Part shown: one piece after another, positions 11,325 through 50,745 of the stretch
Layout: the number at the start of each line of letters is the position of its first letter
Numbering within the stretch: the stretch's first letter is position 1
Assembly: GCA_052326305.1 (NCBI GenBank)
Contig: JBKQPJ010000017.1
Location: 6,475 to 70,474 of the forward strand
Direction of reading: 5' to 3'
Source of the DNA: Thermoplasmata archaeon
Lineage (GTDB): Archaea > Thermoplasmatota > Thermoplasmata > Lutacidiplasmatales > UBA184
Length of the DNA stretch: 64,000 nucleotides
Notes under the pieces: generated by a model
The model's database searches: none
Told to the model about the DNA's origin: nothing
The model's input: the letters and a program-made list of their open reading frames with translations, nothing else
Made by a program: the position numbers and the translations under genes

Positions 11325-11340
11325 CGGGCCCCTCCCGTCG

Positions 11341-11685: not shown

Positions 11686-11689
11686 ATCG

Positions 11690-13298: not shown

Positions 13299-13314
13299 CG
13301 ATGAACCGCTCCTG

Positions 13315-14013: not shown

Positions 14014-14123
14014 CTCCCCGTCGGCGGCGGCGACGCGACGGACCTGGCCGATCGGCAGTTCGAGCGCCGCCTCGCGTCGGGGCGGGAACGGGCACGCGTC
14101 GGTCCCGCAGAGCTCGGGGAACG

Positions 14124-24302: not shown

Positions 24303-24319
24303 CGTCGGCCGCCCTCGCC

Positions 24320-31285: not shown

Positions 31286-32998
31286 ATGGCGTTCGAGCTC
31301 CAGTCGCTCTGGGACGTCATCGTCCTCGTAGCGATCGCGATCGCGCTCGCCCCTTGGTTCGGAAGCTACCTCGGCCGCGTCTACATGGACCTGCCGCTCT
31401 TCGGCGACCGGATCCTGACCCCAATCGAGTCGGGGATCTACCGGCTGCTGGGGACCTCCCCCCGCAAGTCGATGCGCGCGGGGGAGTACATGGTCGCCCT
31501 CCTCCTCGTCAATGCCGGGGTCGCGGCCTTCCTGTTCGTCTTCTTCTATCTCCAGGGCGGCCTGCCCGGGAACCCCTCCGGCGTCCCGGGGATGCCCTGG
31601 TCCCTCGCCGTCCATTCCGCGGCGAGCTTCACGACCAATACCAACTTCACCCACTTCACCAACGAGTCCCAGGTCTCTCTCGCCTCGCTCACCGTCGCGT
31701 GGCCCCTCGCCCTCTTCCTCTCTCCCGCCACCGGACTCGCCGCGGTCGTCGCGATGGTCCGCGGGTTCGTGCGCAAGGACGGGACGGTCGGGAACTTCTA
31801 CGTCGACATGGTCCGATCCATCTCCCGGCTCCTGCTCCCCCTCGCGATCCTGGGGGCGATCGTGATGGTGCTCCTGGGCGTCCCCGAAACGTACACCGGC
31901 GTCGTGATGGCCCACCCGATCACCGGCGGGACGCAGGCGATCTACCTCGGCCCGGTGGCCTCGTTCCAGTCGATCTCGCTGCTCGGGTCGAACGGAGGAG
32001 GGTTCTATGCCGCCAACATGGCGAGCCCCCTCGCAAACCCCTCCGCCGTATCGAACCTCTTCGGTACGTTCGTCATGATGTTGATCCCATTCTCCACCCC
32101 GTTCGCTTTCGGAGCGATCGTACGGCGGCGCGGCGAGGCGTGGCCGTACATGGGGGTCATCATCATCGTCTTCGCGATTGCCTTGGGCCTTTTCATCGCC
32201 TACCAGGCGGCCACCAACCCGCTCCTCTTGGGAGTTCACGGCCTCGGTCCCCAGGTCAACGGCTACCCCGTCGGGCAGGAGACGCGGTGGAGCCTTTCGG
32301 AAGGGTCGCTGTTCCAGGTCGTCAGCGTCTATTCGAACGTCGGGGCGAACAACATGGCGATCGGCGCGATCTCGCCGGTCGCCCAGCTCGTCCTCCTGTT
32401 CGGGATGTTCACCCAGAGCACGCCCGGGGGCGTGGGGACGGGATTCGGGACGCTGCTGCTCTTCTCGCTGATGGGGATCTTCGTCGGCGGACTGATGGTC
32501 GGACGGACCCCCGAGTACCTGGGCAAGAAGATCGGCACGAGCCACGTCCGCTGGGCCGCGCTCGCGATCTTGACGCACCCCGCCTTCATCCTGCTTCCCT
32601 TCGTCGTGGCGCTGCTCGGGGGGTACGTCGACCTCAGCGGACCTACGGTCGGTGCGACCACCCACAATTTCACGTCCGTGCTCTACGAGTTCACCTCGGA
32701 GTCGGCGAACAACGGGAGCGCGCTCTCGACCGGGGCGTTCAACGACACCACGCTCTACTTCAACCTCGCCGGAGCCTTGGTGATGCTCGCCGGGCGCTTC
32801 GTTCCGATCTGGGTGATGATCAAGATCGGTGGGCTCTTCTCGGAGCAGCCAACCCTTCCGCCGGGACCGGGCACGTTGCGCACCGCGAGCGGGACGTTCT
32901 CGCTGTACCTCACGCTCTTCCTGGTCATCACGACCGCTCTCATCTTCCTGCCCGTCATGACGCTCGGGCCGCTCTCCCAGATCCTCGGGGGTGGCTAG
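31286..32998 (+). CDS. kdpA: potassium-transporting ATPase subunit A
   Basis: 570-aa polytopic protein with KdpA selectivity-filter-like repeats. Confidence 0.95.
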   Translation: MAFELQSLWDVIVLVAIAIALAPWFGSYLGRVYMDLPLFGDRILTPIESGIYRLLGTSPRKSMRAGEYMVALLLVNAGVAAFLFVFFYLQGGLPGNPSGVPGMPWSLAVHSAASFTTNTNFTHFTNESQVSLASLTVAWPLALFLSPATGLAAVVAMVRGFVRKDGTVGNFYVDMVRSISRLLLPLAILGAIVMVLLGVPETYTGVVMAHPITGGTQAIYLGPVASFQSISLLGSNGGGFYAANMASPLANPSAVSNLFGTFVMMLIPFSTPFAFGAIVRRRGEAWPYMGVIIIVFAIALGLFIAYQAATNPLLLGVHGLGPQVNGYPVGQETRWSLSEGSLFQVVSVYSNVGANNMAIGAISPVAQLVLLFGMFTQSTPGGVGTGFGTLLLFSLMGIFVGGLMVGRTPEYLGKKIGTSHVRWAALAILTHPAFILLPFVVALLGGYVDLSGPTVGATTHNFTSVLYEFTSESANNGSALSTGAFNDTTLYFNLAGALVMLAGRFVPIWVMIKIGGLFSEQPTLPPGPGTLRTASGTFSLYLTLFLVITTALIFLPVMTLGPLSQILGGG

Positions 32999-39531: not shown

Positions 39532-40095
39532 TCACCGACGGCAGACGTCGAGGAAATGGCGGAAGATCTCCCGCCCGCCCTCGGTGTGCTCGACCTCGGG
39601 GTGGAACTGCACGCTCCAGATCGGCCGGACGGGGTGCGCCATCGCCTCCACCGGGCAGGATGCCGAGTGGGCGAGCACCGGCCACCCCGGCGGCGGCGTC
39701 ACGACCTGGTCGTTGTGGCTCGCCCAGACCTTGAACCGGTGCGGCAGCCCGGCGAACATCGGGTGGTCGGGGCGGTCCACGGTGAGGTCGACCGAGCCGA
39801 ACTCGGGTCCCCCCCGCGCGACGGTCCCGCCGAATCGGCGGCCGACGAACTGGTGGCCGACGCAGATCGCGAGCACCGGGACCGGGACCGAATCGATCCA
39901 GTCGTCCACCCGTCCGAGCGGGGCCGCGGAGCCCTCGAGGCTGAGGGCCCCGCCCGACAGCACGATCCCGTCGGCGTCGAGCTCGGCAAGGGGGGTGGTG
40001 TTCGCGACGATCCGGCTCTCCGCGCCGAGGTCCCGCAGCACCCGCCACTCGCGGTGGGTCCACTGGCCCCCGTTGTCGATCACCGGGATCTTCAC
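39532..40095 (-). CDS. guaAA: GMP synthase subunit A (class-I glutamine amidotransferase)
   Basis: GATase triad context LAICVGHQ ... HPE. Confidence 0.8.
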   Translation of the reverse strand: MKIPVIDNGGQWTHREWRVLRDLGAESRIVANTTPLAELDADGIVLSGGALSLEGSAAPLGRVDDWIDSVPVPVLAICVGHQFVGRRFGGTVARGGPEFGSVDLTVDRPDHPMFAGLPHRFKVWASHNDQVVTPPPGWPVLAHSASCPVEAMAHPVRPIWSVQFHPEVEHTEGGREIFRHFLDVCRR

Positions 40096-40460
40096 GACCG
40101 CTCCGGGGGACGACGCGGAGGCGGCGGGGGATCCCGAGCGTCGGGTCGGACGGCGCGGCGGATCTCCTCGACCGCCGAGCGCATATCCCGGACCTCGGAG
40201 CGCATCCGGAGCATCTCCTGCTCGTACGGCGTGAACCCGAGCGGCGTCAGCAGCCGGTGGGAGATGTAGAGGCCGATGAAGATCGCGCCGACCACGGCGA
40301 GCAGCGTGGTGAAGACGAGCGCGGTCACCAGGGCGATCGGGTCCCCTAGGGCGAGTTGGATCGGCAGGGTGAACAGGTGGGTCAGCTCGGCGACCTCGAC
40401 CCCGAGGAGGATCACGATCAGCCCTCCCCAGACGGCAAAGATCGTCCAGGACCGCCTCAC
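40092..40460 (-). CDS. hypothetical membrane protein
   Basis: Three hydrophobic helices. A GTG start is inferred to avoid overlap with the upstream gene. Confidence 0.4.
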   Translation of the reverse strand: MRRSWTIFAVWGGLIVILLGVEVAELTHLFTLPIQLALGDPIALVTALVFTTLLAVVGAIFIGLYISHRLLTPLGFTPYEQEMLRMRSEVRDMRSAVEEIRRAVRPDARDPPPPPRRPPERS

Positions 40461-41026
40461 GGCGGGCTCCCGGAGCCCCAGTCCTGGAGCAGCAGTACGA
40501 GCGGCAGGCTGCCGATCGATAGGGGGGAGGACGGCGGCGTGGCCCCGTAGCACGCCGCGCTCGACAGGTACCCGCCCGAGGTGTCGAAGGCGAGCTCGGC
40601 GGAGTAGTTCGCCGTCGAGCCGCCCTCGATGTACGTGGCCGTGGCGACGATCGCCACCGGGTTCTGTTCGGTCTCCGCGCTCACCTCGAGGACGTTCTTC
40701 TGGTCCACCGGGGCGCCGAAGGTGAGCCCCGAGCCGGGACAGACGCCGCTCCAGGCGAAGTTCGAGGCGAGCATGATCGAGATCTCGGCGTACCGCACGG
40801 TCGGCCCGACGGCATGCACGTAGAAGGTCGTGTTGTTGCTGCTCGGGAGCTGGTCGACGATCAGCTCCGCCTGCGTTTCGAACGAGCCGGCGGCGGGAGG
40901 GCCGGAGGCGAACAGGATCGGAGTGAACACGATCAGCACCAGCAGGATCGCGGTCGCCCCGACGAGCGGGATCGGGAACAGCTCCCCGCGGGGGGTGGGA
41001 AGCGGGGGCGGAGGGGCCGCGCTCAC
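40457..41026 (-). CDS. hypothetical N-terminally anchored extracellular protein
   Basis: GTG start overlapping the ubiX stop. Pro-rich segment then a TM helix, a Ser/Thr-rich ectodomain and N-x-S/T sequons. Confidence 0.45.
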   Translation of the reverse strand: MSAAPPPPLPTPRGELFPIPLVGATAILLVLIVFTPILFASGPPAAGSFETQAELIVDQLPSSNNTTFYVHAVGPTVRYAEISIMLASNFAWSGVCPGSGLTFGAPVDQKNVLEVSAETEQNPVAIVATATYIEGGSTANYSAELAFDTSGGYLSSAACYGATPPSSPLSIGSLPLVLLLQDWGSGSPP

Positions 41027-41598
41027 CGCTTCTCGGACCCCCAGGGCCGGTAGAGCCGGTGGCGGAGGCCGAACCGGTCGAGGACCTTGCCGACGAGGTA
41101 GTCGGTGACGTCGTCGATCGACCGGGGGTGGAGGTAGTACGCCGGGGCGGCGGCGAGGACGACGACGCCGAGCTCGCTGAGGGTCGTCAGGTGGCGGAGC
41201 ATCAGCGTCGGGAGCGGCGTTTCCCGCGGCACGACCACGAGGGGGCGCCGCTCCTTCAAGTGGACGTGCGCGGCCCGCGAGATCAGGGTGTCCCCGAGCC
41301 CGAGGGCGATCCGGGCGACGGTGTTGGAGGAGCACGGGACGACGACCATCCCGCGGGTCGGCTGGGTGCCGCTCGCGATCGGGGCCGCGAGCTCGTCGTC
41401 CGGGTAGACATGGCGGGCGAGCTTCGCGAGCTCCCCCTCGTCGATCCCCGCCTCTTCCTTCAGGACCTTCCGACCCCCGGCCGAGACGACGAGCGCGACG
41501 GGCACCCGGGCCCCGTGGAGCCACTCGAGCAGGCGGACCGCGATCGGGGCGCCGCTCGCGCCCGAGACCGCCACGACGATCGGAGGAGTTTCTGCCAT
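41023..41598 (-). CDS. ubiX: flavin prenyltransferase UbiX
   Basis: Flavoprotein fold with VAVSGASGA and a UbiX/Pad1 pattern. Confidence 0.9.
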   Translation of the reverse strand: MAETPPIVVAVSGASGAPIAVRLLEWLHGARVPVALVVSAGGRKVLKEEAGIDEGELAKLARHVYPDDELAAPIASGTQPTRGMVVVPCSSNTVARIALGLGDTLISRAAHVHLKERRPLVVVPRETPLPTLMLRHLTTLSELGVVVLAAAPAYYLHPRSIDDVTDYLVGKVLDRFGLRHRLYRPWGSEKR

Positions 41599-41661
41599 TT
41601 TGGTCCCCCGGGCTTAAGGGCTCGAACGACTCGACCGTTATGACGATTCGCGGGGCGAGCG

Positions 41662-42828
41662 GTGGGAGGGCATCGGGCGGCCGTCATCGGCGCGGGGCAT
41701 ACCCGGTTCGGCCCGCTCCCCGACGGTCCCCGGGCGCTCCTCCGTTCGGCCATCGAGCGGGCCGTGGAGAGCGTGGACCGCGGTCTCGAGACGACGTCGA
41801 TCGGGGCGGCCTACCTCGCCACCCTCGGGTTCGGCGGCTGGCAGATCGGGAACGCCTCCGCGCTCCTGGCCGAGGAGGCCGGCCTCCCGGGGATCCCCTC
41901 GGTGCGGGTCGAGAACGCCTGCGCCTCGGGCGGCTTCGCCCTGCACGCCGCCGTCCATGCCGTCGCCTCCGGGGCAGTGGAGCTCGCGCTCGTCGTGGGC
42001 CTCGAGAAGATGACGGACGTCTCGAACGCGAGACGCCGGTACTGGCTGGGGGTCTCGGGGGAGACCGAGTGGGAGCGCCAGGCCGGTCTGACGTTCGCCG
42101 GGGTCTACGGCCTGATCGCCTCCCGGTACCTCGCCCTCCACGCCGTCGGGCCGGAGGCGCTCGCCGAGGTCGCCGTCAAGAACCACGCGAACGGCGCGCG
42201 CAACCCGAACGCGCACTTCCAGAAGGAGATCACGCGGGAGGCGGCCCTCGCGTCCCCGCGGGTCGCCGACCCGCTCGGCCTCTACGACTGCTGTCCCGTG
42301 AGCGACGGGGCGGCGGCGGTCCTGCTGGCCGCTCCCGAGGTGGCGCGCCGGTACACCGACACCCCGGTGTACGTCGACGGGGTGGGGGCGGCCTCCGACT
42401 TCCTCGCCGTTCAGGAACGGCCCGAACCGACGCGCTTCGAAGCGACGCGCCGCGCCGGGGAGGCGGCCCTCCGGACCGCCGGCTGCGAGCGAAAGGAGCT
42501 CTCGTTCCTCGAACTTCACGACTGCTTCACGATCGCCGAGCTGCTGGCGCTCGAGGACCTCGGGTTCGCCGAGCGGGGGAGCGCCGGGGCGCTGACGCTC
42601 TCGGGCGCGACCCGGCGGGACGGTCCGCTCCCGGTGAACCCGGACGGAGGGCTGAAGGCGAAGGGCCATCCGATCGGCGCCACGGGAGTGTCGCAGGCGT
42701 ACGAGGTGTTCGTTCAGCTCCGCGGCCAGGCCGGCGCCCGCCAGGTCTCCCGACGGGATCGCGCGCTGACGCACAACGTCGGAGGAGCGGGGGCGACGGC
42801 CGCGGTCACCGTCTTCTCCGCGGGGTGA
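41662..42828 (+). CDS. archaeal-type thiolase (acetyl-CoA C-acetyltransferase)
   Basis: Catalytic Cys in VENACASGG and C-terminal GHPIGATG, NVGGAG motifs. Confidence 0.9.
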   Translation: MGGHRAAVIGAGHTRFGPLPDGPRALLRSAIERAVESVDRGLETTSIGAAYLATLGFGGWQIGNASALLAEEAGLPGIPSVRVENACASGGFALHAAVHAVASGAVELALVVGLEKMTDVSNARRRYWLGVSGETEWERQAGLTFAGVYGLIASRYLALHAVGPEALAEVAVKNHANGARNPNAHFQKEITREAALASPRVADPLGLYDCCPVSDGAAAVLLAAPEVARRYTDTPVYVDGVGAASDFLAVQERPEPTRFEATRRAGEAALRTAGCERKELSFLELHDCFTIAELLALEDLGFAERGSAGALTLSGATRRDGPLPVNPDGGLKAKGHPIGATGVSQAYEVFVQLRGQAGARQVSRRDRALTHNVGGAGATAAVTVFSAG

Positions 42829-42832
42829 ACCC

Positions 42833-43876
42833 GTGAACGGGATCGTTCGGGCGGGGGCGTACGCTCCGGCCTGGGGCTCGGGCGGGCGTCGCGTCCCCGG
42901 CCCCGACGAGGACGCCTTCACCCTCGCGGCGACCGCCGTCGAACGGGCGGTCGGTCCTTCGATCCTCCCCTCTTCGCCCGTGACGGTGGACGTCATCGGC
43001 GAGGCGGGCGAGGCGGCGTCGTGGGGTTTCGGCCCGCTCCTCGGGGTAGAGGCGCGGGTCCGCTCCCACCCCGGGGGCCCGGCGGCCCTCGGGAGCGCGC
43101 TCTCCTCCGCCCGAGCTGGCCCGGGTTCAGGGCTAGTCGTGGCCGTGGACCTGGGGAGCAGTGGAGGGCCCGATCACGACTCTCGCGGGGCCGGCGCGGT
43201 CGCGTTCTTCCTCGCGGCCGAGGCGCGGGAGGACGCCGAGTTCGGGTCGCCGCCGGCACCGCTCGGTCCTTCCGAGACGGCCGTCGACCTCGCGAGACGG
43301 TGGTTCCGTGACCGATCGGAGGCGGCCCGAGCCTCCTGGATCGGGGACTGGCGGCCGAACCACCGGCCGCTCCGGCCCTCTCCGCTCGTCCCGGGGGCGG
43401 CGCCGGCTCCTCCGAGCCCCGCGGTCTCCGAGGGAGCCTACCTGCCGCGACCGCGATATGTGGAGGGGCTGCCGAGCCGGTGGAGGTTCGCGGCCGAGCG
43501 CTGTGGGACCTGTGGCCGTATCGGCTTCCCGGTCCGTCGCCGGTGCCGGGGGTGCGGAAGAGCCGATTCGCTGGAGCTCCTCCACCTGCCGCGGGACGGC
43601 GGGAAGGTCGTCGCGCTGACCTGGATCGGGCGGGGGGGCCAGCCGACCGAGTTCGACCCTCAGGTCGAGGCGACAGGACCGTACGGGGTCGTCCTGGTCG
43701 AGCTCGCCGAGGGGATCCGCGCCACGCTGCAGTTGACCGACTGCGACCCAGGGGAAGTTCGGATCGGGGACCCGGTAGGGAGCCGCCTTCGCAGGATCTA
43801 CGCGCTCGAAGGGGAGTGGCGGTACGGGCGCAAGGCGGTCCCGATGCGGGAGACGGCCCCCCCTCCCGTGGCGTGA
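42833..43876 (+). CDS. fusion protein: degenerate HMG-CoA-synthase N-half-like domain + DUF35 (Zn-ribbon/OB-fold thiolase-HMGCS scaffold)
   Basis: N-terminal approximately 200 aa align with the HMGCS N-half (GIVRAGAYAP; PDEDAFTLAATAVERA; GAGAVAFFLAA) but contain no cysteine. The C-terminus has CGTCGRIGFPVRRRCRGCGR and an OB-fold typical of DUF35. Confidence 0.7.
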   Translation: MNGIVRAGAYAPAWGSGGRRVPGPDEDAFTLAATAVERAVGPSILPSSPVTVDVIGEAGEAASWGFGPLLGVEARVRSHPGGPAALGSALSSARAGPGSGLVVAVDLGSSGGPDHDSRGAGAVAFFLAAEAREDAEFGSPPAPLGPSETAVDLARRWFRDRSEAARASWIGDWRPNHRPLRPSPLVPGAAPAPPSPAVSEGAYLPRPRYVEGLPSRWRFAAERCGTCGRIGFPVRRRCRGCGRADSLELLHLPRDGGKVVALTWIGRGGQPTEFDPQVEATGPYGVVLVELAEGIRATLQLTDCDPGEVRIGDPVGSRLRRIYALEGEWRYGRKAVPMRETAPPPVA

Positions 43877-43890
43877 ACCGCCGATCCCTT

Positions 43891-44109
43891 CTAGCCGAAG
43901 CCGGGGAGGCTCTGACGGGAGTCCCGGGCCTCTTTCCGTTCGTACGGCTCGGCCGCGATGCCGAGGTGCGTCGCGAGCGTACGGAAGGTCGTCGCCAGCT
44001 GGTTGACCGCCCGGACGAGCTCCTGCTGTTCGGCGCGGAGCTCCGCGAGCTCTTGGCGGAGCATTCGCAGTTCGGCCTCCCAGTGTTCCTCGGTCGACGA
44101 CGCGGTCAC
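43891..44109 (-). CDS. hypothetical small coiled-coil protein
   Basis: 72-aa helical R/E/L-rich ORF. Confidence 0.3.
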   Translation of the reverse strand: MTASSTEEHWEAELRMLRQELAELRAEQQELVRAVNQLATTFRTLATHLGIAAEPYERKEARDSRQSLPGFG

Positions 44110-44168
44110 TTGATCTCCCGAGGGCCAGAAGGCGAAGATGCCTGATTAGCTTCCCGGCGGTCGGAGGG

Positions 44169-44678
44169 CTAGGTCGGAGGCCCGGTCGGGGGGTCCTTCT
44201 CCACGAACGGCGTCCAGTCCTGCTTCTCGGCCGAGAAGTCGATCCGACGCAGGTCGAGGACGAACTCCTTCAGGAGGTTCGAGGGACCGGGGCGAAGCGC
44301 GATCGTGTAGACGTAGACCCCGAAGCCCATGAAATCGAGCACCCGACGCAGGACCTCCGGGAGGTCCTCACGGGGTACGATGACGCGGATCGACGTCTCC
44401 CCCAACATGCTCGAGAACTGGTCGATGTCGAACCCGCGGTCGAGCGTGATGAGGGGGTCTCCGCCGGGGGGGGCGGAGGCACCCCGCAACGGCGGGCTCG
44501 CCCGAGAGTCGATGACGATGGGAGGGGGCGGAGGCAGGCTCTGGACCCGGGGGGGGTAGCGCTCGAGCACCGGCGACGGGTCGCGGCCCACGAACCGGGG
44601 CGCGGGAGCGCGGGCGACGGGGGCCCGGGGCTTGGGGCGTCGCTTCGCTTTCCGGGCCGGTGCGGGACGTCGGGGCAT
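44169..44678 (-). CDS. hypothetical protein with basic N-terminal tail and poly-Pro linker
   Basis: N-terminus KAKRRPKPRAP, a PPPPP run, then a compact C-terminal alpha/beta-looking domain. Confidence 0.45.
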   Translation of the reverse strand: MPRRPAPARKAKRRPKPRAPVARAPAPRFVGRDPSPVLERYPPRVQSLPPPPPIVIDSRASPPLRGASAPPGGDPLITLDRGFDIDQFSSMLGETSIRVIVPREDLPEVLRRVLDFMGFGVYVYTIALRPGPSNLLKEFVLDLRRIDFSAEKQDWTPFVEKDPPTGPPT

Positions 44679-44931
44679 CGATCGGAGGACCGAGGCGAGG
44701 ACCGCGCATAAGGTATTGGAGGGAGACGGGGAGGGCGCGGGCAGGTCCGAGCTCGAGGGGCTCTCGGAACGGCCGTCGAGGGCAAGTTGTAGCGAGTGCC
44801 ACCGTGCGAGCCCACCTCACGGGAAGCTCGTTTTGTCGCCTTCCCGACGACAGATGGGTTATGTAGCATGGGATTGCTGGCTCAGCAAGCCCGACTCGAA
44901 GGAGGAGGGCGGAACGGAGAGGAAACGACCA

Positions 44932-46641
44932 ATGCCGGCGCGAGTGATGAAGGAGTTCCAGGCCCCCCGGGGCCTTCCGCGGAAGACGGCGTCCGTCTGC
45001 CCTGAGTGCATCAAGGTGATTCCGGCGATCGTCCGGGAGAAGGACGGCCGCGTGATCATGGAAAAGACGTGCCGCGCGCACGGCTATTTCTGGGACATCA
45101 TCTCTAACGACGTCGACTTCTACCTCCGGATGGAGGTCTACGCGCACGACGGCGTCGGCTACGAGAACCCGTACTACGAGAAGTTCATCGGCTGCCCGAC
45201 GACCTGCGGAATGTGCAGCCACCACAAGTCCCACACGGGACTGGCGTTGGTGGACCTGACGAACCGCTGCAACCTGAAGTGCCCGGTCTGCTTCGCGAAC
45301 GCCAACGCCGCCGGCTACGTCTTCGAGCCGACCCGCGAGCAGATCCACTTCATGCTGAAGACGCTCCGGGAGCAGAAGCCGGTGGGCACGGTCGCCGTCC
45401 AGTTCTCGGGCGGGGAGCCGACGCTGTCGCCGCTGTTCCTCGACGCCGTGTCGATGGCCCGGGACCTGGCGTTCAAGCAGATCCAGGTCGCCACGAACGG
45501 GATCCGCGTCGCGAACGAGCCCGGCTTCGCCCAGGCGTGCCGGAACGCGGGCCTCCACACTCTGTACCTGCAGTTTGACGGGCTGGACGACGAGATCTAC
45601 CGGAAGGTCCGAGGGGTCCCGCTGTTCAAGGTGAAGCAGAAGGCGATCCAGGCCGCGCGGGAGACCCACTCCTCCCCCGCCGAGCTCGCCGCGGGCAAGC
45701 CCGACAAGCCGATCTCCGTGGTGCTCGTCCCGACCCTCGTCGGCGGGTTCAACGAGAAGGAGATCTGGCCGACCGTGAAGTTCGCGATCGACAACATCGA
45801 CGTCGTCCGCGGCGTCAACTTCCAGCCGGTCGCCCTGACCGCCCGGATCCCCGACAAGGACCGCTTCCAGATGCGGTTCACTCAGTCCGACCTGGTCCGC
45901 ATCCTCTGCACCGAGGGACCGTTCGAGAAGTCCGACTTCTTCCCCGTCCCATCGGTCGCCCCGATCTCGGAGCTCGTCTCGATCATCCACGGCGAGGAGA
46001 AGATGACCCTGACGACGCACCCGGGCTGCGGCTGCGCCACGTTCGCCTTCGTCTCGGAGGACGGCCAGAAGATCACTCCCCTGCCGCGGTTCATGGACGT
46101 CGACGGCTTCTTCGAGAACGTCGAGTCGATGATCGAGAAGTACCGGGACGCGCGGTTCTCGCGGGTCCGCACGGCGGTGGCCGGGGCCCGGCTGCTCCAC
46201 GACGTGTCGAAGTACTTCGACTTCTCGAAGGCCCCGGAGGGCCTGAACGAGAAGAACTGCGTCAAGGTGATCGCCGGGATCTTCACCGAGGGCAACAAGG
46301 AGGCGCTCGCGCAGTTCACCTGGCGGACGATGTACATCGGCAACATGCACTTCCAGGACGCCTACGACTACGATATCCAGCGCCTGATGCGCTGCGACAT
46401 CCACTACGCGGTGCCGGACGGGCGCGTCATCCCGTTCTGCTCGTACAACTCGGGCCCGATCTACCGGACGGAGGTCGAGCAGAAGTTCTCGATCCCGATC
46501 AAGGACTGGCAGCGGGCGAAGCAGCAGGCCGGCGTTCCGCTGAAGACGCTCGAGACGATGGGCGTCAACGGCGAAGTGATCGTCGACCCCGAGTACTACA
46601 AGATCCGGGCGCTCAAGGGCGCCCCGGGGATGTCGGCGTAG
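44932..46641 (+). CDS. tes: radical SAM protein, tetraether lipid synthase (Tes/GDGT-MAS)-like
   Basis: N-terminal CPEC...C..H rubredoxin-like site, a second Cys cluster CPTTCGMCSHH, the radical SAM CNLKCPVCF motif and a C-terminal HPGCGC. GGAGGAGGG RBS before the ATG at 44932. Confidence 0.7.
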   Translation: MPARVMKEFQAPRGLPRKTASVCPECIKVIPAIVREKDGRVIMEKTCRAHGYFWDIISNDVDFYLRMEVYAHDGVGYENPYYEKFIGCPTTCGMCSHHKSHTGLALVDLTNRCNLKCPVCFANANAAGYVFEPTREQIHFMLKTLREQKPVGTVAVQFSGGEPTLSPLFLDAVSMARDLAFKQIQVATNGIRVANEPGFAQACRNAGLHTLYLQFDGLDDEIYRKVRGVPLFKVKQKAIQAARETHSSPAELAAGKPDKPISVVLVPTLVGGFNEKEIWPTVKFAIDNIDVVRGVNFQPVALTARIPDKDRFQMRFTQSDLVRILCTEGPFEKSDFFPVPSVAPISELVSIIHGEEKMTLTTHPGCGCATFAFVSEDGQKITPLPRFMDVDGFFENVESMIEKYRDARFSRVRTAVAGARLLHDVSKYFDFSKAPEGLNEKNCVKVIAGIFTEGNKEALAQFTWRTMYIGNMHFQDAYDYDIQRLMRCDIHYAVPDGRVIPFCSYNSGPIYRTEVEQKFSIPIKDWQRAKQQAGVPLKTLETMGVNGEVIVDPEYYKIRALKGAPGMSA

Positions 46642-46665
46642 GGAGACCGTTCCCGCCGCGCCCAA

Positions 46666-46690
46666 CCCTTTCTTCTTCTTCCTTTACCGC
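46666..46690. terminator. pyrimidine/T-rich tract (CCCTTTCTTCTTCTTCCTTTACC) between the convergent tes-like and SWIM genes
   Basis: The only T-rich run in the region, immediately after the tes stop. This is the archaeal oligo-T terminator type. Confidence 0.4.
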
Positions 46691-46703
46691 CGGGCGGGTG
46701 TGC

Positions 46704-47138
46704 CTACTCGAACAGGGCGGCTCCCGGGCGGGAGAGCTCCCGTCCGGTGACGCGGGACGCCGCCGGGAGGTCCTTGGTCCGCCGGTCGATCTCGGGCCAG
46801 ACGGTCGGGGGCCGGGGCGGCGCTTGGGTCGAGGTCGGTGGGCCCGCGTCCGCGTGGACCGTCAGCCAGCGGATCCCGGCCTCGATGTGCTTGCAGGTCC
46901 CCAGGTCGCGGCGGGCGAAGTCCGTGCAGGTGCACAGCGCCGGGATCGGGGAAGGGAATTCGGGGAACATGACGAGGTAGGCGGTGCGGTGGATCGGGTT
47001 ACGGACCTCGAGCAGCGCGTAGGGGTCCCGGGCCTTCACGCGGACGTCCAGCGGCTCCTCGAGCGCCCGGGCCCTCCGTTCCGCCCTCGCCTCGGCGGGT
47101 ACCCGGTCAGCGCCCGGAACGCGGAGGGGTCGCCGCAC
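46704..47138 (-). CDS. SWIM zinc-finger domain protein
   Basis: CTCTDF-x8-CKH matches the SWIM CxCxnCxH signature. Confidence 0.5.
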   Translation of the reverse strand: MRRPLRVPGADRVPAEARAERRARALEEPLDVRVKARDPYALLEVRNPIHRTAYLVMFPEFPSPIPALCTCTDFARRDLGTCKHIEAGIRWLTVHADAGPPTSTQAPPRPPTVWPEIDRRTKDLPAASRVTGRELSRPGAALFE

Positions 47139-47377
47139 GTATCCCGGAACGGCCGGGCGTCATTAGGCGAACGGAGGACCCTCCCGGGCCCCGGTCGTCG
47201 GTCGCGAGGGGCGGTCCGACCGACCCCCTGGAGCGAGTTGGGTCGGGAGACGCCGGACCCGACCCCTCCCGCACCGGAGCGGCGCGGCCGACCCGTCGGG
47301 TCCGTTCCGGCGGCGGGCGATCCGCCCGTTCAGGGCGACTCCCGCGCGGTTATCTCCTCACTCGGCCACCGCCGGCC

Positions 47378-47614
47378 GTGTCCGCCCCGGCCGGCACCGC
47401 CCCGGAACCCCTCCCCCGCGCTCGGCGGCCGTCGCTCTCCAAGCGTTCCAAGATCGGCCTCGGCCTCCTATTCACCCTCCTCGGGCTCTTCCTGCTCGCG
47501 GACGAACTGCCGGTCGCTCCCGGACCGCTCGAGCACGCCCTCCCGGTCCTGGCCGCCGGGGTCGTGGGCCTCTGGGTGGGGGGCATCCTGATGGGGATCG
47601 GCAGCCGGTCCTAG
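47378..47614 (+). CDS. hypothetical 2-TM small protein
   Basis: Track ORF with hydrophobic helices; weak support. Confidence 0.25.
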   Translation: MSAPAGTAPEPLPRARRPSLSKRSKIGLGLLFTLLGLFLLADELPVAPGPLEHALPVLAAGVVGLWVGGILMGIGSRS

Positions 47615-47691
47615 GACCCCGGCGGAACGCGGCGGGCTTGGGAATCGCGGCGGCGTCGACTGGAATGTGCCGCTCCCTGCCAACAGGTTTC

Positions 47692-47697
47692 TTATAA
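47692..47697 (+). promoter_or_regulatory. TATA box (TTATAA) for the leaderless gene starting at 47719
   Basis: AT hexamer 22-27 nt upstream of the ATG. Confidence 0.45.
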
Positions 47698-47718
47698 CGA
47701 CGGTCCGTCCCGCGACCG

Positions 47719-48300
47719 ATGGAGTACGTCGTCGTCCGGGCGACCCACCCGTCCTGGCTGACCCTGCAGCTTCCGACCGAGGTGGCGACGTTGATACGGT
47801 TCGAGCCTCCGGCCGCCGGGGAGGCGCGGGATGGCGGCCGGTCGATCTCGTTCCTGGCCCGGGGCACCGGGCTCGTCCGCGTGATCGCGACCCATCCGGC
47901 GCGCGAGGCGCTGGCGATCGAGACGGTCCGCAGCCGCCTGCTCGCCACCGCCCGGCCGGGGGAGCGTCTCCTGTTCACGCTTCCGGCGTCCGTGGGCGAG
48001 CACCTCGGGCTCAAGGTGTACTCCCGGGGCCCGCGGGTGCGCGGGACCGACGACTCCCTCGTCTGGTTCGTGCCCGCGCCGGAGTACTACGAGTACCGCT
48101 CGCTCATTTCGGCCGGAAAGGCGTGGAACGGCCCGTCCGGAGGCCCGTTCGCCCACGTATATCTCGCGAAGTCCCTCGTCCCGTTCCCGAAGGAGCTCGG
48201 CGCGCTCGCCGAGCAGGAGTACCGGATCGAGCAGGACGAATGGCGCCCCGGGGTGGAGGCGCTCCATCGGATCGGACGGGGCCGGCGGACGGTGTTATAA
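47719..48300 (+). CDS. hypothetical protein (193 aa)
   Basis: A TTATAA box sits 23-28 nt upstream of the ATG (leaderless). No recognisable domain. Confidence 0.5.
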   Translation: MEYVVVRATHPSWLTLQLPTEVATLIRFEPPAAGEARDGGRSISFLARGTGLVRVIATHPAREALAIETVRSRLLATARPGERLLFTLPASVGEHLGLKVYSRGPRVRGTDDSLVWFVPAPEYYEYRSLISAGKAWNGPSGGPFAHVYLAKSLVPFPKELGALAEQEYRIEQDEWRPGVEALHRIGRGRRTVL

Positions 48301-48350
48301 CATCCCGGACCGGGCCGGTCTCGCAAACCGGTAGGTCGTTTTACGAACGT

Positions 48351-48357
48351 ATATATA
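48351..48357 (+). promoter_or_regulatory. TATA box (ATATATA) for the leaderless gene starting at 48382
   Basis: AT-rich heptamer in otherwise 70 % GC DNA, 25 nt upstream of the ATG. Confidence 0.5.
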
Positions 48358-48381
48358 GTGACCCGTGGAATAGAATTTGGC

Positions 48382-49041
48382 ATGCCGGCGTCGGGACGGC
48401 GGCCCACAAAGAGTGCTTCTTCGAGCGGCTACACCCTGCGTAATCCGGTCCCCCTCCGGAGCGCTTCCGACACCGCGCGGACGCGGGTCGGGATCCCCGA
48501 CGATGCGGTGCTCGCGAACCTCAGCGGTCCGGTCGATTTCGACTCCCTGGCGAAGGCGATCCGACGCTCCGTCGGCCACGACGGGATGCGTCCCGAGGAC
48601 GCCCGATCGATCGCCGCCCACGTGCTGAACTTCTTCGGCTTCAACGAGCGGATCATCGACAACGTCCTCGAGCCGGACGACCGCGACACGTTCTACATGC
48701 TCGAGGACACGGGGATCCTCGAGACCGAGCGGGACGAGACGACCCTCTACGACGGCCGCGAGTGGAGGATCCACTACTGGATGTTCCGCAAGGACCGGAT
48801 CTTCGAGCTGGCGCACGAGGAGAGCGCGGCGATGGCCGCCGCCGGCGAGCTCGACGTCGTCTACTCCTCCAACGCGAACCGCTCGGGAGCGTTCCGCCTG
48901 CCCCACGGCGAGGTCGGCACCGGGCTCCCGGCCCATGCCGTCTACCACGAGCTCGGGGACGAGATCTGGCTGGAACGCCGCCAGAACCCTATCCCGGCGC
49001 CCCCGGGGCCCCGGGCCCGACGCTCCCCGCTCGGCCCGTAG
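48382..49041 (+). CDS. hypothetical protein (219 aa)
   Basis: An ATATATA box at 48351-48357 lies 25 nt upstream of the ATG. No recognisable domain. Confidence 0.5.
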   Translation: MPASGRRPTKSASSSGYTLRNPVPLRSASDTARTRVGIPDDAVLANLSGPVDFDSLAKAIRRSVGHDGMRPEDARSIAAHVLNFFGFNERIIDNVLEPDDRDTFYMLEDTGILETERDETTLYDGREWRIHYWMFRKDRIFELAHEESAAMAAAGELDVVYSSNANRSGAFRLPHGEVGTGLPAHAVYHELGDEIWLERRQNPIPAPPGPRARRSPLGP

Positions 49042-49090
49042 GCGCGCCGGCGGCGAACCGTTAATCCCCCGCACCGGCTCCGCGCCGGGG

Positions 49091-49714
49091 ATGCGTCGCT
49101 TCCTGCTCCTCGCCCACCGGGTCCCGGCCCGGGGGGAGTTCACCCTGAACGACCTCGCGGGCGGAGGCGGGCGGATGGACGAGGTCGCCCGGGCGGTCTC
49201 GACCGCGTTCACGCTCTCGAACGACCTGCGCCGGGACACGGAGATGACGATCCTCTTCGCGGGAGGCCCCGCCGCCCCGCCGCGCCGGGTCGACCTGGTC
49301 GGCGCTCGCCTTCGCTACCTCAACCCCGACGAGCGGTCGACGGCCGCCCTGCTGAAGAACGCCCTCGCCCGCGCCGCGACCTACCCGCACGAGTTCGAGT
49401 CGTCCCCCGGGCTCCGGGTCGGGCCGACGGAGCCGCTGGAGGCCCTCGCCGAGTTCCTCCGGCGGCCGGGAGCGCTCTGGCTGACGGAGACCGGAACGCC
49501 GATCGCCGGGTGGCGAGGGCCCCCCGACGAGGTCGCCGCCGTCGTCTCGGACCCGTACGACCCGACCCCCGAGGAGACGGAGCGCCTCGTGTCGAGCGGG
49601 GTGCCGCGCGTCTCGGTGGGGCCCCTCGTGCTCCGGACGAGCCAGGTGATCGATGCCGTCCACCGGGAGCTCGACCTGCGCGCGCTCGGCCCGACGGCGG
49701 CTCGCCCGGGCTAG
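49091..49714 (+). CDS. trmY: tRNA (pseudouridine54-N1)-methyltransferase TrmY
   Basis: The SPOUT TrmY (MJ1640 family) pattern is seen in DLAGGGGRMDEVARAV ... LSNDLRRD. Confidence 0.8.
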   Translation: MRRFLLLAHRVPARGEFTLNDLAGGGGRMDEVARAVSTAFTLSNDLRRDTEMTILFAGGPAAPPRRVDLVGARLRYLNPDERSTAALLKNALARAATYPHEFESSPGLRVGPTEPLEALAEFLRRPGALWLTETGTPIAGWRGPPDEVAAVVSDPYDPTPEETERLVSSGVPRVSVGPLVLRTSQVIDAVHRELDLRALGPTAARPG

Positions 49715-50745
49715 CGGACGAGCGGGATCTCGTAGGATCCCCGAGCGCGCGGACCGATCGCCTCGCGGACCGTCCGCGTCCGCAGGCCGCCGACGATCGC
49801 CGTCAGCCGGACCGCGTCGCGGGGCTCGGGACCGAGCCGGGTGCCGAAGACGAGCCGTTCGGGCTCGTGGAGGTCGGCGCGGACCGCCTCGAGCACCCGG
49901 TCGAGGGTCTGCAGGGTGAGGTTGGCGCCGCCGTCGAGGTGGACGAGGACCGACGTCCGGTCCGAGAGCCGGTAGTCGAGCATCGTCCCGGAGAGCGCCT
50001 CGTGGACGAGCCGTTCGGGCTCGGAGATGTGCTGCTCGCCGATCGTGAGCGTGGAGAGGCCGGAGTCCCGCAGGTGGTTCTTGAGGCTCGCGAGGTCGAC
50101 GTTCAGCTGCGAGGGGTTCTCGACCATGTCGACCAGGCTCGCGACGAGGGAGTGCAGGTAGGCGTTCCGGACCTGGAAGACGCGGTGGATCGGGAGCGTC
50201 TCGAACCGGCGGAGCTTCTCGTTCGCCAGCGCGAGCAGGAGGCCCCCCATCCGCTCGAGCTCCTCGACCGTCTCCTCCACGTTCTTGCGCCGTCCCGGGT
50301 TCGACTCGAGCTCGACGCGGAACGGAAGGAAGATGACGGGGACCGGGAGCGTCGAGGTGCCGCGGAGGTGTCGGGAGAGGTACGGGAGGAGCGCGCTCCC
50401 CGTACCGCCCCCGAGCCCGGCGAGCAGGAAGACCATCTCGAACGGGGCGAGGCGGCCGAGGACCTCGTCCCGGCTCTCCTCGATCGCGCGGAGGACCGCG
50501 GCCCGATCGCCGCCGCTCCCCCGGCCTCGAAGCTCCCGGTGTCCGAGGAGGATCCGCTCGGTGACCCGGATCTTCGAGAGGTGGGCCTCGTCCGTGTTGA
50601 CCGCGATCGAGCGCACGCCGGGGATCCCGAGGCTCGCGATGTCCTGGGCCGCTTCGCTGCCGGCGCCGCCGAGCCCGACGATGGCGATCGGCGGGCCGGT
50701 GGAGGACGGCTTCCAGGCCTCCGGAAGCAGGTAACTGTCGTTCAT
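49711..50745 (-). CDS. divergent FtsZ/tubulin-family GTPase (CetZ/FtsZ-like, 344 aa, no C-terminal tail)
   Basis: T1 loop GLGGAGSE, T4 signature GLGGGTGSA, T7 NVDLAS. ATGA overlap with the upstream RHH gene region. Confidence 0.8.
   Translation of the reverse strand: MNDSYLLPEAWKPSSTGPPIAIVGLGGAGSEAAQDIASLGIPGVRSIAVNTDEAHLSKIRVTERILLGHRELRGRGSGGDRAAVLRAIEESRDEVLGRLAPFEMVFLLAGLGGGTGSALLPYLSRHLRGTSTLPVPVIFLPFRVELESNPGRRKNVEETVEELERMGGLLLALANEKLRRFETLPIHRVFQVRNAYLHSLVASLVDMVENPSQLNVDLASLKNHLRDSGLSTLTIGEQHISEPERLVHEALSGTMLDYRLSDRTSVLVHLDGGANLTLQTLDRVLEAVRADLHEPERLVFGTRLGPEPRDAVRLTAIVGGLRTRTVREAIGPRARGSYEIPLVR

What the first reader, a model, noticed from the sequence alone, without database searches (positions are those of the whole stretch)
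44932..46641. Tes/GDGT-MAS-like radical SAM enzyme (tetraether lipid synthase)
The Cys architecture matches the recently characterised tetraether synthase family: an N-terminal CPEC...C..H site, an auxiliary cluster CPTTCGMCSHH, the radical SAM CNLKCPVC and a C-terminal GCGC. It has a strong GGAGGAGGG RBS and a T-rich terminator.
Basis: partly seen in the sequence, partly recalled or inferred. Interest (0 to 1): 0.5.

Follow-up and report, generated by a model that had tools for sequence, protein, structure and literature searches.

The report
Archaeal tetraether lipid synthase (Tes) gene
This gene encodes an ordinary, well-conserved copy of the known radical SAM enzyme Tes (also called GDGT-MAS), which joins archaeal lipid tails into membrane-spanning tetraethers; it comes from an uncultured acid-soil Thermoplasmata archaeon, and the only fresh detail is a conserved palindrome in its promoter.

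Summary
The ORF at 44932-46641 (+, 569 aa) is real and under strong purifying selection. It is a full-length orthologue of tetraether lipid synthase Tes/GDGT-MAS. It scores 574 bits against the NCBIfam Tes equivalog model (cutoff 450). It matches M. jannaschii GDGT-MAS (PDB 7TOL) at E=6e-136 and 44% identity, and its AlphaFold model superposes on 7TOM with TM 0.93. All four metal sites of the crystal structure are kept: the rubredoxin-like CX2CX20CX2H site, the N-terminal 3Cys+His cluster, the radical SAM CX3CX2C cluster, and a C-terminal cluster with three invariant Cys plus the Met439 equivalent. Only the first Cys of "GCGC" is conserved. The GGAGGAGGG lies 22 nt from the start and is not conserved, whereas GGAGAGG lies 9 nt upstream. 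The T-rich tract downstream of the stop is conserved. The host belongs to the Lutacidiplasmatales-like soil and peat lineage (~71% GC), and 80 genomes carry 92-97% identical orthologues. A palindrome, TGTCG-N9-CGACA, sits just upstream of a TATA-like box. It is present in 81 of 81 close loci and in 6 of 6 distant Tes loci (one with a mismatch). In three of those the gene immediately upstream is a divergent TrmB-family regulator, and a fourth has one 4.6 kb away. The gene itself is already known.

The parts
44932..46641 (+). tes gene: tetraether lipid synthase Tes/GDGT-MAS, 569 aa plus stop codon
   Evidence: ORF and translation. NF045702 scores 574.4 bits against a cutoff of 450. 7TOL matches at E=6e-136. 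AF2 model has pLDDT 84.9 and TM 0.93 to 7TOM. Codon position 3 differs far more than position 2 across orthologues.
44998..45081 (+). Rubredoxin-like mononuclear Fe site, C23-X2-C26-X20-C47-X2-H50 (Pfam Zn_ribbon_HMPTM, residues 16-58)
   Evidence: Same spacing as MJ0619 C9X2C12X20C33X2H36. All four residues are invariant in 117/117 homologs. PF23545 hit at E=1.8e-16.
45193..45225 (+). N-terminal auxiliary [4Fe-4S] site: C88, C92, C95 and H98
   Evidence: Aligns with MJ0619 C73/C77/C80/H83 and is invariant in 117/117 homologs. The neighbouring H97 is variable.
45268..45291 (+). Radical SAM cluster motif C113-X3-C117-X2-C120
   Evidence: Aligns with MJ0619 C98/C102/C105 and is invariant in 117/117 homologs. 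PF04055 covers residues 109-285.
46027..46440 (+). C-terminal auxiliary [4Fe-4S] site: C366, M472, C488 and C503
   Evidence: M472 aligns with the labile ligand Met439 of MJ0619 (116/117). C366, C488 and C503 align with MJ0619 C338/C455/C470 and are the only invariant C-terminal cysteines. That these three cysteines are the ligands is inferred from conservation.
44834..44852 (.). Conserved palindrome TGTCG-N9-CGACA (TGTCGCCTTCCCGACGACA), a candidate operator upstream of the tes promoter
   Evidence: TGT[CA]G-N9-C[GT]ACA is present with a fixed 9-nt spacer in 81/81 close loci. It is present in 5/6 distant Tes loci, and in the sixth with one mismatch. The window has a single exact match.
44859..44865 (+). 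TATA-like box TTATGTA, 6 nt after the palindrome and 67 nt before the ATG
   Evidence: TTA[TC]GTA is found in 63/81 loci, always starting 25 nt after the palindrome start. The distant loci have AT-rich TATA-like boxes in the same place. Promoter function is inferred.
44916..44922 (+). Likely Shine-Dalgarno-like element GGAGAGG, with a 9-nt spacer to the ATG
Evidence: An SD-like tetramer within -18..-4 occurs in 79/81 loci.
46664..46688 (+). Pyrimidine/T-rich tract AACCCTTTCTTCTTCTTCCTTTACC between the convergent genes; a plausible archaeal terminator
   Evidence: The core motif lies 22-29 nt after the stop in 65/81 loci. The consensus scan calls no canonical hairpin terminator.

Best explanation
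The gene encodes the tetraether lipid synthase Tes (GDGT-MAS) of an uncultured, high-GC, aerobic Thermoplasmata archaeon of the Lutacidiplasmatales-like soil and peat lineage.

By homology with MJ0619, the mechanism would run as follows. The radical SAM [4Fe-4S] cluster (C113/C117/C120) cleaves SAM to a 5'-deoxyadenosyl radical, which abstracts H from the terminal methyl carbon of a saturated phytanyl chain. The substrate radical is parked as a C-S bond on the C-terminal [4Fe-4S] cluster (C366/C488/C503, with M472 as a labile ligand). A second SAM activates a second chain, which attacks that carbon to form the C(sp3)-C(sp3) bond. Two such bonds between two archaeol-type lipids give GDGT-0, using 4 SAM. 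One bond within a single lipid gives macrocyclic archaeol. The rubredoxin-like Fe and the N-terminal cluster presumably relay electrons.

What is shown here is family membership, intact metal sites, fold and purifying selection. The chemistry, and GDGT rather than macrocyclic archaeol as the main product, are inferred.

The gene appears to be monocistronic: the upstream gene is divergent and the downstream gene convergent. It is transcribed from a TATA-like box preceded by a deeply conserved palindrome, which is probably the operator of a TrmB-family regulator encoded elsewhere in the genome (inferred).
For: - Family models: NF045702 'tetraether lipid synthase Tes' (equivalog) scores 574.4 bits against a cutoff of 450, end to end. 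Pfam finds Zn_ribbon_HMPTM plus Radical_SAM.
- Solved structure: 7TOL/7TOM GDGT-MAS matches at E=6.3e-136 over query 12-531, with 43.8% identity over 495 columns.
- Metal ligands: all ligand positions named in PMC9433317 are conserved with identical spacing, and are invariant in 116-117 of 117 homologs. Gln268, Arg275, Asn108 and Ala109 of the SAM/active-site loop network are also conserved.
- Fold: the AF2 model (pLDDT 84.9, pTM 0.89) has 7TOM as top PDB match (E=2e-57, TM 0.93 normalised to target). The next match, MoaA, reaches only TM 0.54.
- Orthologues: 80 species-representative Thermoplasmata genomes hold orthologues at 92-97% identity. Tes is the most conserved gene in the neighbourhood, at a median 93% aa against 46-83% for neighbours, and synonymous changes outnumber non-synonymous ones.
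- Pathway context: a type-2 IPP isomerase is in the window (TIGR02151, 364.6 bits). A ferredoxin-GGR pair sits on another contig of the assembly that holds the L028 Tes orthologue (94% identical), not in the window's own genome.
- Function of the family: shown by heterologous expression (PMC8941075) and in vitro with a crystal structure (PMC9433317).
Against: - No lipid or enzyme data exist for this uncultured lineage, and the Lutacidiplasmatales paper does not mention lipids.
- The family contains paralogs with poor or different output. MA_1114 gave only traces of macrocyclic archaeol, so product identity cannot be read from sequence.
- The protein has a lineage-specific insertion of about 12 aa (residues 247-258) and a C-terminal extension of about 38 aa, both absent from MJ0619 and of unknown effect.
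- Ser271 of MJ0619 is Ala here, as it is in 95/117 homologs.
- The usual tes-ferredoxin-GGR linkage is absent in this lineage.
- The cysteine ligands of the C-terminal cluster are inferred from invariance; I found no explicit residue list for them.
Confidence: 0.9

Rival explanations
1. It is a Tes-family enzyme whose physiological product is not GDGT. For example, it might make only macrocyclic archaeol, or be a low-activity paralog like MA_1114, with another enzyme or a second Tes copy elsewhere in the genome making the tetraethers.
For: In PMC8941075, MA_1114 produced only traces of macrocyclic archaeol while MA_1486 and Maeo_0574 made GDGT, and 22 of 322 methanogen genomes carry two copies. 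MJ0619 itself makes both products. Only 64 kb of this genome was visible.
Against: There is no second copy in the window. Each of the 80 related genomes contributes one locus, with all assembly prefixes distinct. The protein clears the equivalog cutoff by 124 bits. Its extreme conservation relative to its neighbours suits an essential membrane enzyme.
Confidence: 0.08
2. It is a 7,8-dihydro-6-hydroxymethylpterin dimethyltransferase (HMPTM) of methanopterin biosynthesis. This is the older assignment of MJ0619, and some databases still give it to close homologs.
For: JGI names P0001, P0009 and P0036 '7,8-dihydro-6-hydroxymethylpterin dimethyltransferase'. The Pfam N-terminal domain is still called Zn_ribbon_HMPTM.
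Against: MJ0619 was re-assigned as GDGT-MAS on structural, in vitro and lipid-binding evidence (PMC9433317). Homologs make GDGT in vivo. This host is a non-methanogen whose window carries a heme-copper oxidase, cytochrome b and a Rieske protein, and nothing in the window suggests a need for methanopterin (inference).
Confidence: 0.01
3. It belongs to a neighbouring radical SAM family: the TrsS (seleno)protein family, or a SPASM/twitch peptide or cofactor maturase.
For: TrsS (NF045646) is the third-best NCBIfam hit at 320.9 bits. Generic radical SAM core similarity extends to MoaA, PqqE and SkfB.
Against: TrsS falls below its cutoff of 490, and its best stretch covers only profile positions 2-306 of 441. 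The maturase and MoaA hits reach 24-60 bits against cutoffs of 131-650 and cover only the radical SAM core. Fold similarity to them is at most TM 0.56 (normalised to target), against 0.93 for GDGT-MAS.
Confidence: 0.01

Closest known systems
GDGT-MAS / Tes of Methanocaldococcus jannaschii (MJ0619; PDB 7TOL, 7TOM; Lloyd et al. 2022, PMC9433317)
   Same: It has the same four-domain architecture and the same metal-ligand pattern: CX2CX20CX2H, CX3CX2C+H, CX3CX2C, and three Cys plus Met. Identity is 43.8% over 495 columns, at E=6e-136. The predicted fold matches at TM 0.93.
   Different: It has 14 extra N-terminal residues, an insertion of about 12 aa at 247-258 and a C-terminal extension of about 38 aa. 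Ser271 is Ala. MJ0619 C438 and C456 are not Cys here, and the extra Cys C368 is lineage-specific. The host is a mesophilic aerobic soil archaeon, not a hyperthermophilic methanogen.
Tes of Methanosarcina acetivorans (MA_1486) and Methanococcus aeolicus (Maeo_0574); Zeng et al. 2022, PMC8941075
   Same: It meets that paper's homolog criterion in spirit (E<1e-50, identity >30% to family members) and belongs to the same NCBIfam equivalog family. More distant Thermoplasmatota relatives keep the MA_1484-1486-type tes-ferredoxin-GGR cluster.
   Different: In this lineage tes is detached from ferredoxin-GGR, which lie on another contig of one related MAG's assembly.
MA_1114, the second Tes paralog of M. 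acetivorans
   Same: It is in the same family.
   Different: MA_1114 gave only traces of macrocyclic archaeol. Nothing here indicates which behaviour this protein has, and that is the main residual uncertainty.
TrsS radical SAM (seleno)protein (NF045646)
   Same: It shares the N-terminal zinc ribbon, the auxiliary cluster and the radical SAM core (profile positions 2-306).
   Different: The score of 320.9 is below the cutoff of 490, and the C-terminal domain does not match.
TrmB-family operators such as the Thermococcales glycolytic motif TATCAC-N5-GTGATA (from my own knowledge, not tested here)
   Same: The tes-upstream element is a palindrome whose arms extend to 7 bp around a 5-nt centre (L082 TGTAGTT-N5-AACTACA, L085 TGTAGTG-N5-CACTACA). 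In three distant loci it lies between tes and a divergent TrmB-family gene.
   Different: The sequence is different, binding has not been shown, and no TrmB gene lies next to tes in this lineage.

Membership tests
Tes / GDGT-MAS (NCBIfam NF045702; PDB 7TOL) | Full-length match to the curated equivalog HMM, above its cutoff | tested here: met
   574.4 bits against a cutoff of 450; protein residues 18-522 cover profile positions 1-485 of 486.
Tes / GDGT-MAS (NCBIfam NF045702; PDB 7TOL) | N-terminal rubredoxin-like Fe site, C-X2-C-X20-C-X2-H | tested here: met
   C23/C26/C47/H50 have the same spacing as MJ0619 C9/C12/C33/H36 and are invariant in 117/117 homologs. PF23545 hit at E=1.8e-16.
Tes / GDGT-MAS (NCBIfam NF045702; PDB 7TOL) | N-terminal auxiliary [4Fe-4S] cluster ligated by three Cys (CX3CX2C) and a conserved His | tested here: met
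   C88/C92/C95/H98 align with MJ0619 C73/C77/C80/H83 and are invariant in 117/117 homologs.
Tes / GDGT-MAS (NCBIfam NF045702; PDB 7TOL) | Radical SAM CX3CX2C cluster and SAM-site residues | tested here: met
   C113/C117/C120 align with MJ0619 C98/C102/C105. N123, A124, Q298 and R305 align with MJ0619 N108, A109, Q268 and R275 and are invariant. MJ0619 S271 is Ala here, as in 95/117 homologs.
Tes / GDGT-MAS (NCBIfam NF045702; PDB 7TOL) | C-terminal auxiliary [4Fe-4S] cluster with three Cys and the labile Met439 | tested here: met
   M472 aligns with Met439 (116/117). C366/C488/C503 align with MJ0619 C338/C455/C470 (116-117 of 117). Which cysteines are the ligands is inferred from invariance; the text I read did not list them.
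Tes / GDGT-MAS (NCBIfam NF045702; PDB 7TOL) | Four-domain fold of GDGT-MAS | tested here: met
   The AF2 model (pLDDT 84.9, pTM 0.89) matches 7TOM at E=2.3e-57, with TM 0.81 normalised to the query and 0.93 to the target. The next match is MoaA, at 0.32 and 0.54.
Tes / GDGT-MAS (NCBIfam NF045702; PDB 7TOL) | Catalyses tail-to-tail C-C coupling of phytanyl chains to give GTGT, GDGT or macrocyclic archaeol | not testable with these tools
   This needs heterologous expression or an in vitro assay with LC-MS. There are no lipid data for the lineage.
Tes / GDGT-MAS (NCBIfam NF045702; PDB 7TOL) | Host can make the saturated archaeol substrate (isoprenoid pathway, GGR with its ferredoxin) | tested here: inconclusive
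   A type-2 IPP isomerase is in the window. A ferredoxin-GGR pair is found in the assembly of one Tes-bearing related MAG (L094 with L028). I did not look for the GGGP or DGGGP synthases, and the window's own genome beyond 64 kb was not available.
TrsS radical SAM (seleno)protein (NF045646) | Score above the equivalog cutoff over the whole profile | tested here: not met
   320.9 bits against a cutoff of 490; the best stretch covers profile positions 2-306 of 441.
SPASM/twitch radical SAM maturases (PqqE, SkfB, anSME-type and others) | C-terminal SPASM/twitch domain match and a score above the family cutoffs | tested here: not met
   These hits reach 24-47 bits against cutoffs of 265-650 and cover only residues of about 103-246. 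PDB sequence hits are at E of about 1e-5. Fold TM is at most 0.43 normalised to target.
Gms (GMGT synthase) | Radical SAM with two SPASM-type auxiliary clusters and no rubredoxin domain (PMC13459092) | tested here: not met
   This protein has the rubredoxin-like domain. The review notes that Gms lacks it. No Gms profile was available to score directly.

The most novel reading that the evidence does not exclude
The 19-bp palindrome TGTMG-N9-CKACA lies immediately upstream of the tes TATA box. It is conserved from ~71%-GC Lutacidiplasmatales-like genomes to AT-rich Methanomassiliicoccales-type genomes. It may be the operator of a dedicated TrmB-family regulator of tetraether lipid synthesis that has not been described. 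That regulator is encoded divergently next to tes in several lineages and at an unlinked site (fumarase-TrmB-TYW2) in this one. If so, GDGT formation in Thermoplasmatota would be under transcriptional control, and the control could be studied through a defined cis element.
Probability: 0.4. Interest if true: 0.45.

Novelty: already known. Interest (0 to 1): 0.2.

Why it matters
The gene itself matters little. It is a textbook orthologue of an enzyme characterised in 2022, and current NCBI models would name it automatically.

Two modest points follow:
- **Source of soil GDGTs.** The gene marks the acid-soil and peat Thermoplasmata (the TMEG/Lutacidiplasmatales group) as probable producers of isoprenoid GDGTs. 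No paper in the searchable library links this group to GDGTs. From my own knowledge, GDGT-0-based indicators in soils and peats are usually attributed to methanogens and Thaumarchaeota, so an abundant aerobic heterotrophic source would matter for interpreting those proxies.
- **Regulation.** The deeply conserved promoter palindrome gives a concrete way to ask how archaea regulate tetraether synthesis, for which I found no described regulator.

Tried and rejected
- **Second Tes copy in the window.** tblastn found none.
- **Canonical intrinsic terminator or sigma-70 promoter around the gene.** The scan found none in the right place; its only terminator-like hits are inside the ORF.
Rejected on spacing (22 nt) and lack of conservation (5/81).
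- **orf169 (44169-44678, divergent from tes) as a cryptic TrmB.** BLASTP against the tes-adjacent TrmB of L082 gives E=4.8, and there are no Pfam or NCBIfam hits.
- **TrmB anywhere in the window or the 81 close loci.** None found.
- **Further copies of the palindrome in the window.** One exact match only. The three 1-mismatch matches are at chance level (4 matches observed in all, 4.4 expected) and lie inside coding regions.
- **Palindrome near this lineage's unlinked TrmB gene (autoregulation).** Absent.
- **Palindrome upstream of this lineage's unlinked ferredoxin-GGR pair (regulon).** No exact match. L093 has a single 1-mismatch site at the wrong distance from the TATA box, so a regulon is not supported.
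- **Rfam scan of the window.** No hits.
- **ORB-like origin repeats next to Orc1/Cdc6.** Only weak two-copy repeats.
- **Tes contig of P0018.** No DNA was returned.
Full report
**Observation.** The window holds an ORF on the + strand from the ATG at 44932 to the TAG ending at 46641, encoding 569 aa. C47-R-A-H50, C88-PTT-C92-GM-C95-S-H97-H98, C113-NLK-C117-PV-C120 and G-C366-G-C368. The ORF is clearly a gene. Its codon-position GC is 0.60/0.44/0.93 in a window of about 71% GC. Against 74 ungapped full-length orthologues, the sites that differ are 6.0%, 2.5% and 24.2% at codon positions 1, 2 and 3. Codons with synonymous-only changes make up 22%, against 6.7% with non-synonymous changes.

**Identity.**
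- Pfam finds Radical_SAM (E=2.6e-19) and the N-terminal Zn_ribbon_HMPTM domain (E=1.8e-16).
- The NCBIfam equivalog model NF045702, 'tetraether lipid synthase Tes', matches end to end (profile 1-485 of 486) at 574.4 bits against a curated cutoff of 450.
- The related TrsS model reaches 320.9 bits against a cutoff of 490, and only over its first two thirds.
- MoaA, PqqE and the SPASM maturases match only the radical SAM core, at 24-60 bits.
- Among all PDB chains the best hit is GDGT-MAS of M. jannaschii (7TOL/7TOM), at E=6.3e-136 over query 12-531. The next hit is MoaA at E=6e-6.
- An AlphaFold2 model built on a 57-sequence alignment (pLDDT 84.9, pTM 0.89) has 7TOM as its top Foldseek hit, at E=2.3e-57 and TM 0.93 normalised to the target. 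MoaA follows at TM 0.54.

**Metal sites.** Lloyd et al. (PMC9433317) and a 2026 review (PMC13459092) define the family by four metallocofactors:
- a rubredoxin-like Fe bound by C9X2C12X20C33X2H36;
- an N-terminal [4Fe-4S] cluster bound by C73, C77, C80 and a His;
- the radical SAM CX3CX2C cluster;
- a C-terminal [4Fe-4S] cluster with three Cys and the labile Met439.

I rebuilt the 7TOL chain from the alignment and aligned it with the query and 117 full-length homologs. The query residues line up as follows:

| Site | Query residues | MJ0619 residues |
|---|---|---|
| Rubredoxin-like Fe | C23/C26/C47/H50 | C9/C12/C33/H36 (same spacing) |
| N-terminal cluster | C88/C92/C95/H98 | C73/C77/C80/H83 |
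| Radical SAM cluster | C113/C117/C120 | C98/C102/C105 |
| C-terminal cluster | M472, C366/C488/C503 | Met439, C338/C455/C470 |

All of these positions are invariant in 116-117 of the 117 homologs. C366 is a family-invariant residue, while C368 is Cys in just 14 of 117 homologs and is Thr in MJ0619. That C366, C488 and C503 are the three cysteine ligands of the C-terminal cluster is my inference: they are the only invariant C-terminal cysteines.

Compared with MJ0619 (43.8% identity), the protein has a lineage-specific insertion of about 12 aa (247-258) and a C-terminal extension of about 38 aa. Both are shared only with its closest relatives.

**Organism and conservation.** The identical protein is on NCBI MAG contig JBKQRW010000111.1. 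A scan of species-representative genomes returned 80 loci with 92-97% identical orthologues. Nearly all are labelled Thermoplasmata archaeon and come from soil, peat and permafrost MAG series, and one is Candidatus Lutacidiplasma silvani. That order is described as aerobic or facultatively anaerobic, about 69% GC, and uncultured (PMC9287336). This fits the window's ~71% GC and its heme-copper oxidase, cytochrome b and Rieske genes. The paper says nothing about lipids.

Gene order around tes is conserved across 45 loci with full flanks. The order is thiolase, DUF35-fusion, orf72, orf169, tes, orf144, orf193, DUF6015 and an FtsZ-like gene. Tes is by far the most conserved of these, at a median 93% aa identity against 46-83% for the others. 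The window has no second Tes copy.

**Mechanism.** Membership, cofactor sites and fold are shown here. The chemistry is transferred from MJ0619 and the methanogen homologs:
1. SAM is cleaved at the radical SAM cluster.
2. H is abstracted from the terminal carbon of a saturated phytanyl chain.
3. The radical is parked as a C-S bond on the C-terminal cluster.
4. A second SAM-dependent activation forms the C-C bond.

One bond takes two SAM, giving macrocyclic archaeol or GTGT. GDGT takes four SAM. The product spectrum is not predictable from sequence, because MA_1114, a paralog, made only traces of macrocyclic archaeol. This is the main rival reading, and I give it about 8%. The old 'HMPTM' assignment survives in JGI names for close homologs but has been superseded.

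**Expression signals.** GGAGAGG at 44916-44922 has a 9-nt spacer, and an SD-like tetramer at -18..-4 occurs in 79 of 81 loci. Downstream, no hairpin-type terminator is called. The tract AACCCTTTCTTCTTCTTCCTTTACC (46664-46688) has a conserved core 22-29 nt after the stop in 65 of 81 loci, which is plausible as an archaeal termination signal. The gene is flanked by a divergent gene (orf169) and a convergent gene (orf144), so it is probably monocistronic.

**A conserved promoter element.** The alignment of upstream regions shows that almost the only conserved intergenic bases are a palindrome and a TATA-like box. In the window these are TGTCGCCTTCCCGACGACA (44834-44852) and TTATGTA (44859-44865). 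The pattern TGT[CA]G-N9-C[GT]ACA occurs in 81 of 81 close loci, always with a 9-nt spacer. Where the strict TATA-like heptamer is found (63 of 81 loci), it always starts 25 nt after the palindrome start.

I then fetched six distant Tes loci, with Tes 48-65% identical and much lower GC. Five have TGTAG-N9-C[TG]ACA and the sixth has TtTAG-N9-CTACA. In each the palindrome is followed after 4-6 nt by an AT-rich TATA-like box. By my rough estimate, the chance of an 8-base-specified palindrome falling in a 160-nt region is about 0.002 per locus. The arms often extend to 7 bp with symmetric changes: TGTAGTT/AACTACA in L082 and TGTAGTG/CACTACA in L085.

In those distant loci tes is followed by ferredoxin and GGR in L083-L087, and by GGR directly in L082. 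This is the arrangement known from M. acetivorans. In L082, L084 and L086 the gene immediately upstream is a divergent TrmB-family regulator, and L087 has one 4.6 kb away. The three adjacent TrmBs are 37-47% identical to each other.

The window's lineage has neither a TrmB gene nor ferredoxin-GGR next to tes, but it keeps both elsewhere. A TrmB homolog that is 42-46% identical over its full length lies between fumarase and a TYW2-like gene. It is found on a second contig of the assembly behind L031 (a MAG that also holds a Tes orthologue) and in Sheridan-series Lutacidiplasmatales MAGs. A ferredoxin-GGR pair lies on a second contig of the assembly behind L028.

The palindrome is not found near that TrmB gene. 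It is not convincingly present upstream of ferredoxin-GGR either, so a wider regulon is not supported. No paper in the searchable library links TrmB with tetraether synthesis or GGR.

My reading is that the palindrome is a real, functionally constrained cis element of the tes promoter (about 85% confidence). It is possibly the operator of this TrmB-family regulator (about 40%). It sits just upstream of the BRE/TATA region, which would suit activation or competition with TFB. All of this is inference.

**Verdict.** The gene is an ordinary orthologue of a known enzyme, in a lineage where its presence is unsurprising but had not been discussed. Novelty is 'already known' and interest is low. The promoter palindrome is the only feature worth a further look.

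Noticed in passing
window 44834-44865; also L082-L087 upstream of tes: A palindrome TGTMG-N9-CKACA lies directly upstream of a TATA-like box in the tes promoter. It is present in 81/81 close loci and in 6/6 distant Tes loci (one with a single mismatch), despite large GC differences. I found no description of it in the searchable literature.
   Followed up: yes
L082 7189-7926, L084 7168-7923, L086 4144-4878 (all on the - strand); L088 and L091 5001-5753: A TrmB-family regulator is encoded divergently next to tes in several Thermoplasmatota. In the window's lineage a 42-46% identical homolog sits at an unlinked site, between fumarase and a TYW2-like methyltransferase, with no palindrome nearby.
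   Followed up: partly
window 44169-47138 compared with L083-L087; L093-L096: The widespread tes-ferredoxin-GGR cluster is broken in this lineage. Here tes stands alone, while ferredoxin-GGR remain paired on another contig of a related Tes-bearing MAG (L094, same assembly as L028), downstream of an ABC transporter, a flavin reductase and a pyridine-nucleotide oxidoreductase.
   Followed up: partly
window 39532-50745 compared with 45 orthologous loci: Tes is much more conserved (median 93% aa identity) than every syntenic neighbour (46-83%), including thiolase, GATase and the FtsZ-like protein. This points to unusually strong constraint on the enzyme.
   Followed up: partly
window 41023-43876: A UbiX-family flavin prenyltransferase (-) lies next to a thiolase-domain protein (+). 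After that comes a 347-aa protein whose only recognisable part is a C-terminal DUF35/ChsH2 zinc-ribbon plus OB fold. Its roughly 200-aa N-terminal half matches no family and evolves fast (found in 12/45 loci at 46% identity). No HMG-CoA synthase gene is adjacent.
   Followed up: partly
window 20874-23554: A type-2 isopentenyl-diphosphate isomerase (TIGR02151, 364.6 bits) lies next to an Elp3-type radical SAM/GNAT tRNA-modification enzyme. It is the only other isoprenoid-pathway gene recognised in the window.
   Followed up: partly
window 23555-26142: An Orc1/Cdc6 gene (24721-26142, +) lies close to the maximum of cumulative GC skew (about 20-22 kb), which hints at a replication origin. The upstream 1.1 kb has only weak two-copy repeats and no clear ORB-like array.
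   Followed up: partly
window 6951-7027 (-) and 43580-43671 (+): ARAGORN calls a tRNA-Pro(GGG) that reads as a canonical cloverleaf, yet the Rfam scans listed nothing there, even at E<=1. ARAGORN's second call, a 'tRNA-???' with a 4-base anticodon, lies inside the DUF35-fusion gene and is probably spurious.
   Followed up: partly
window 44169-44678 (-) and 46704-47138 (-): Two small conserved neighbours of tes have no family match. orf169 has a Pro/Arg-rich N-terminus. orf144 contains a CxC...CxH string (CTCTDFARRDLGTCKH) that resembles a SWIM-type zinc finger. They are present in 43/45 and 40/45 related loci.
   Followed up: partly
window 9639-14235: Heme-copper oxidase subunit I, cytochrome b and a Rieske protein indicate aerobic respiration in a host that also depends on an oxygen-sensitive enzyme with three [4Fe-4S] clusters. 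From my own knowledge the same holds for Sulfolobus and Nitrososphaeria, so this is not anomalous.
   Followed up: no
homolog table; L027: Database labels lag behind the literature. JGI names close homologs '7,8-dihydro-6-hydroxymethylpterin dimethyltransferase', and many NCBI entries say only 'radical SAM protein'. One MAG with a 95% identical Tes (DAIDCO010000004) is labelled 'bacterium'.
   Followed up: no
window 31286-35141, 59429-60253: The window also carries KdpA and KdpB potassium-transport ATPase subunits and a SAM hydroxide adenosyltransferase (SAM_HAT) homolog. Both are ordinary, and are recorded only for completeness.
   Followed up: no
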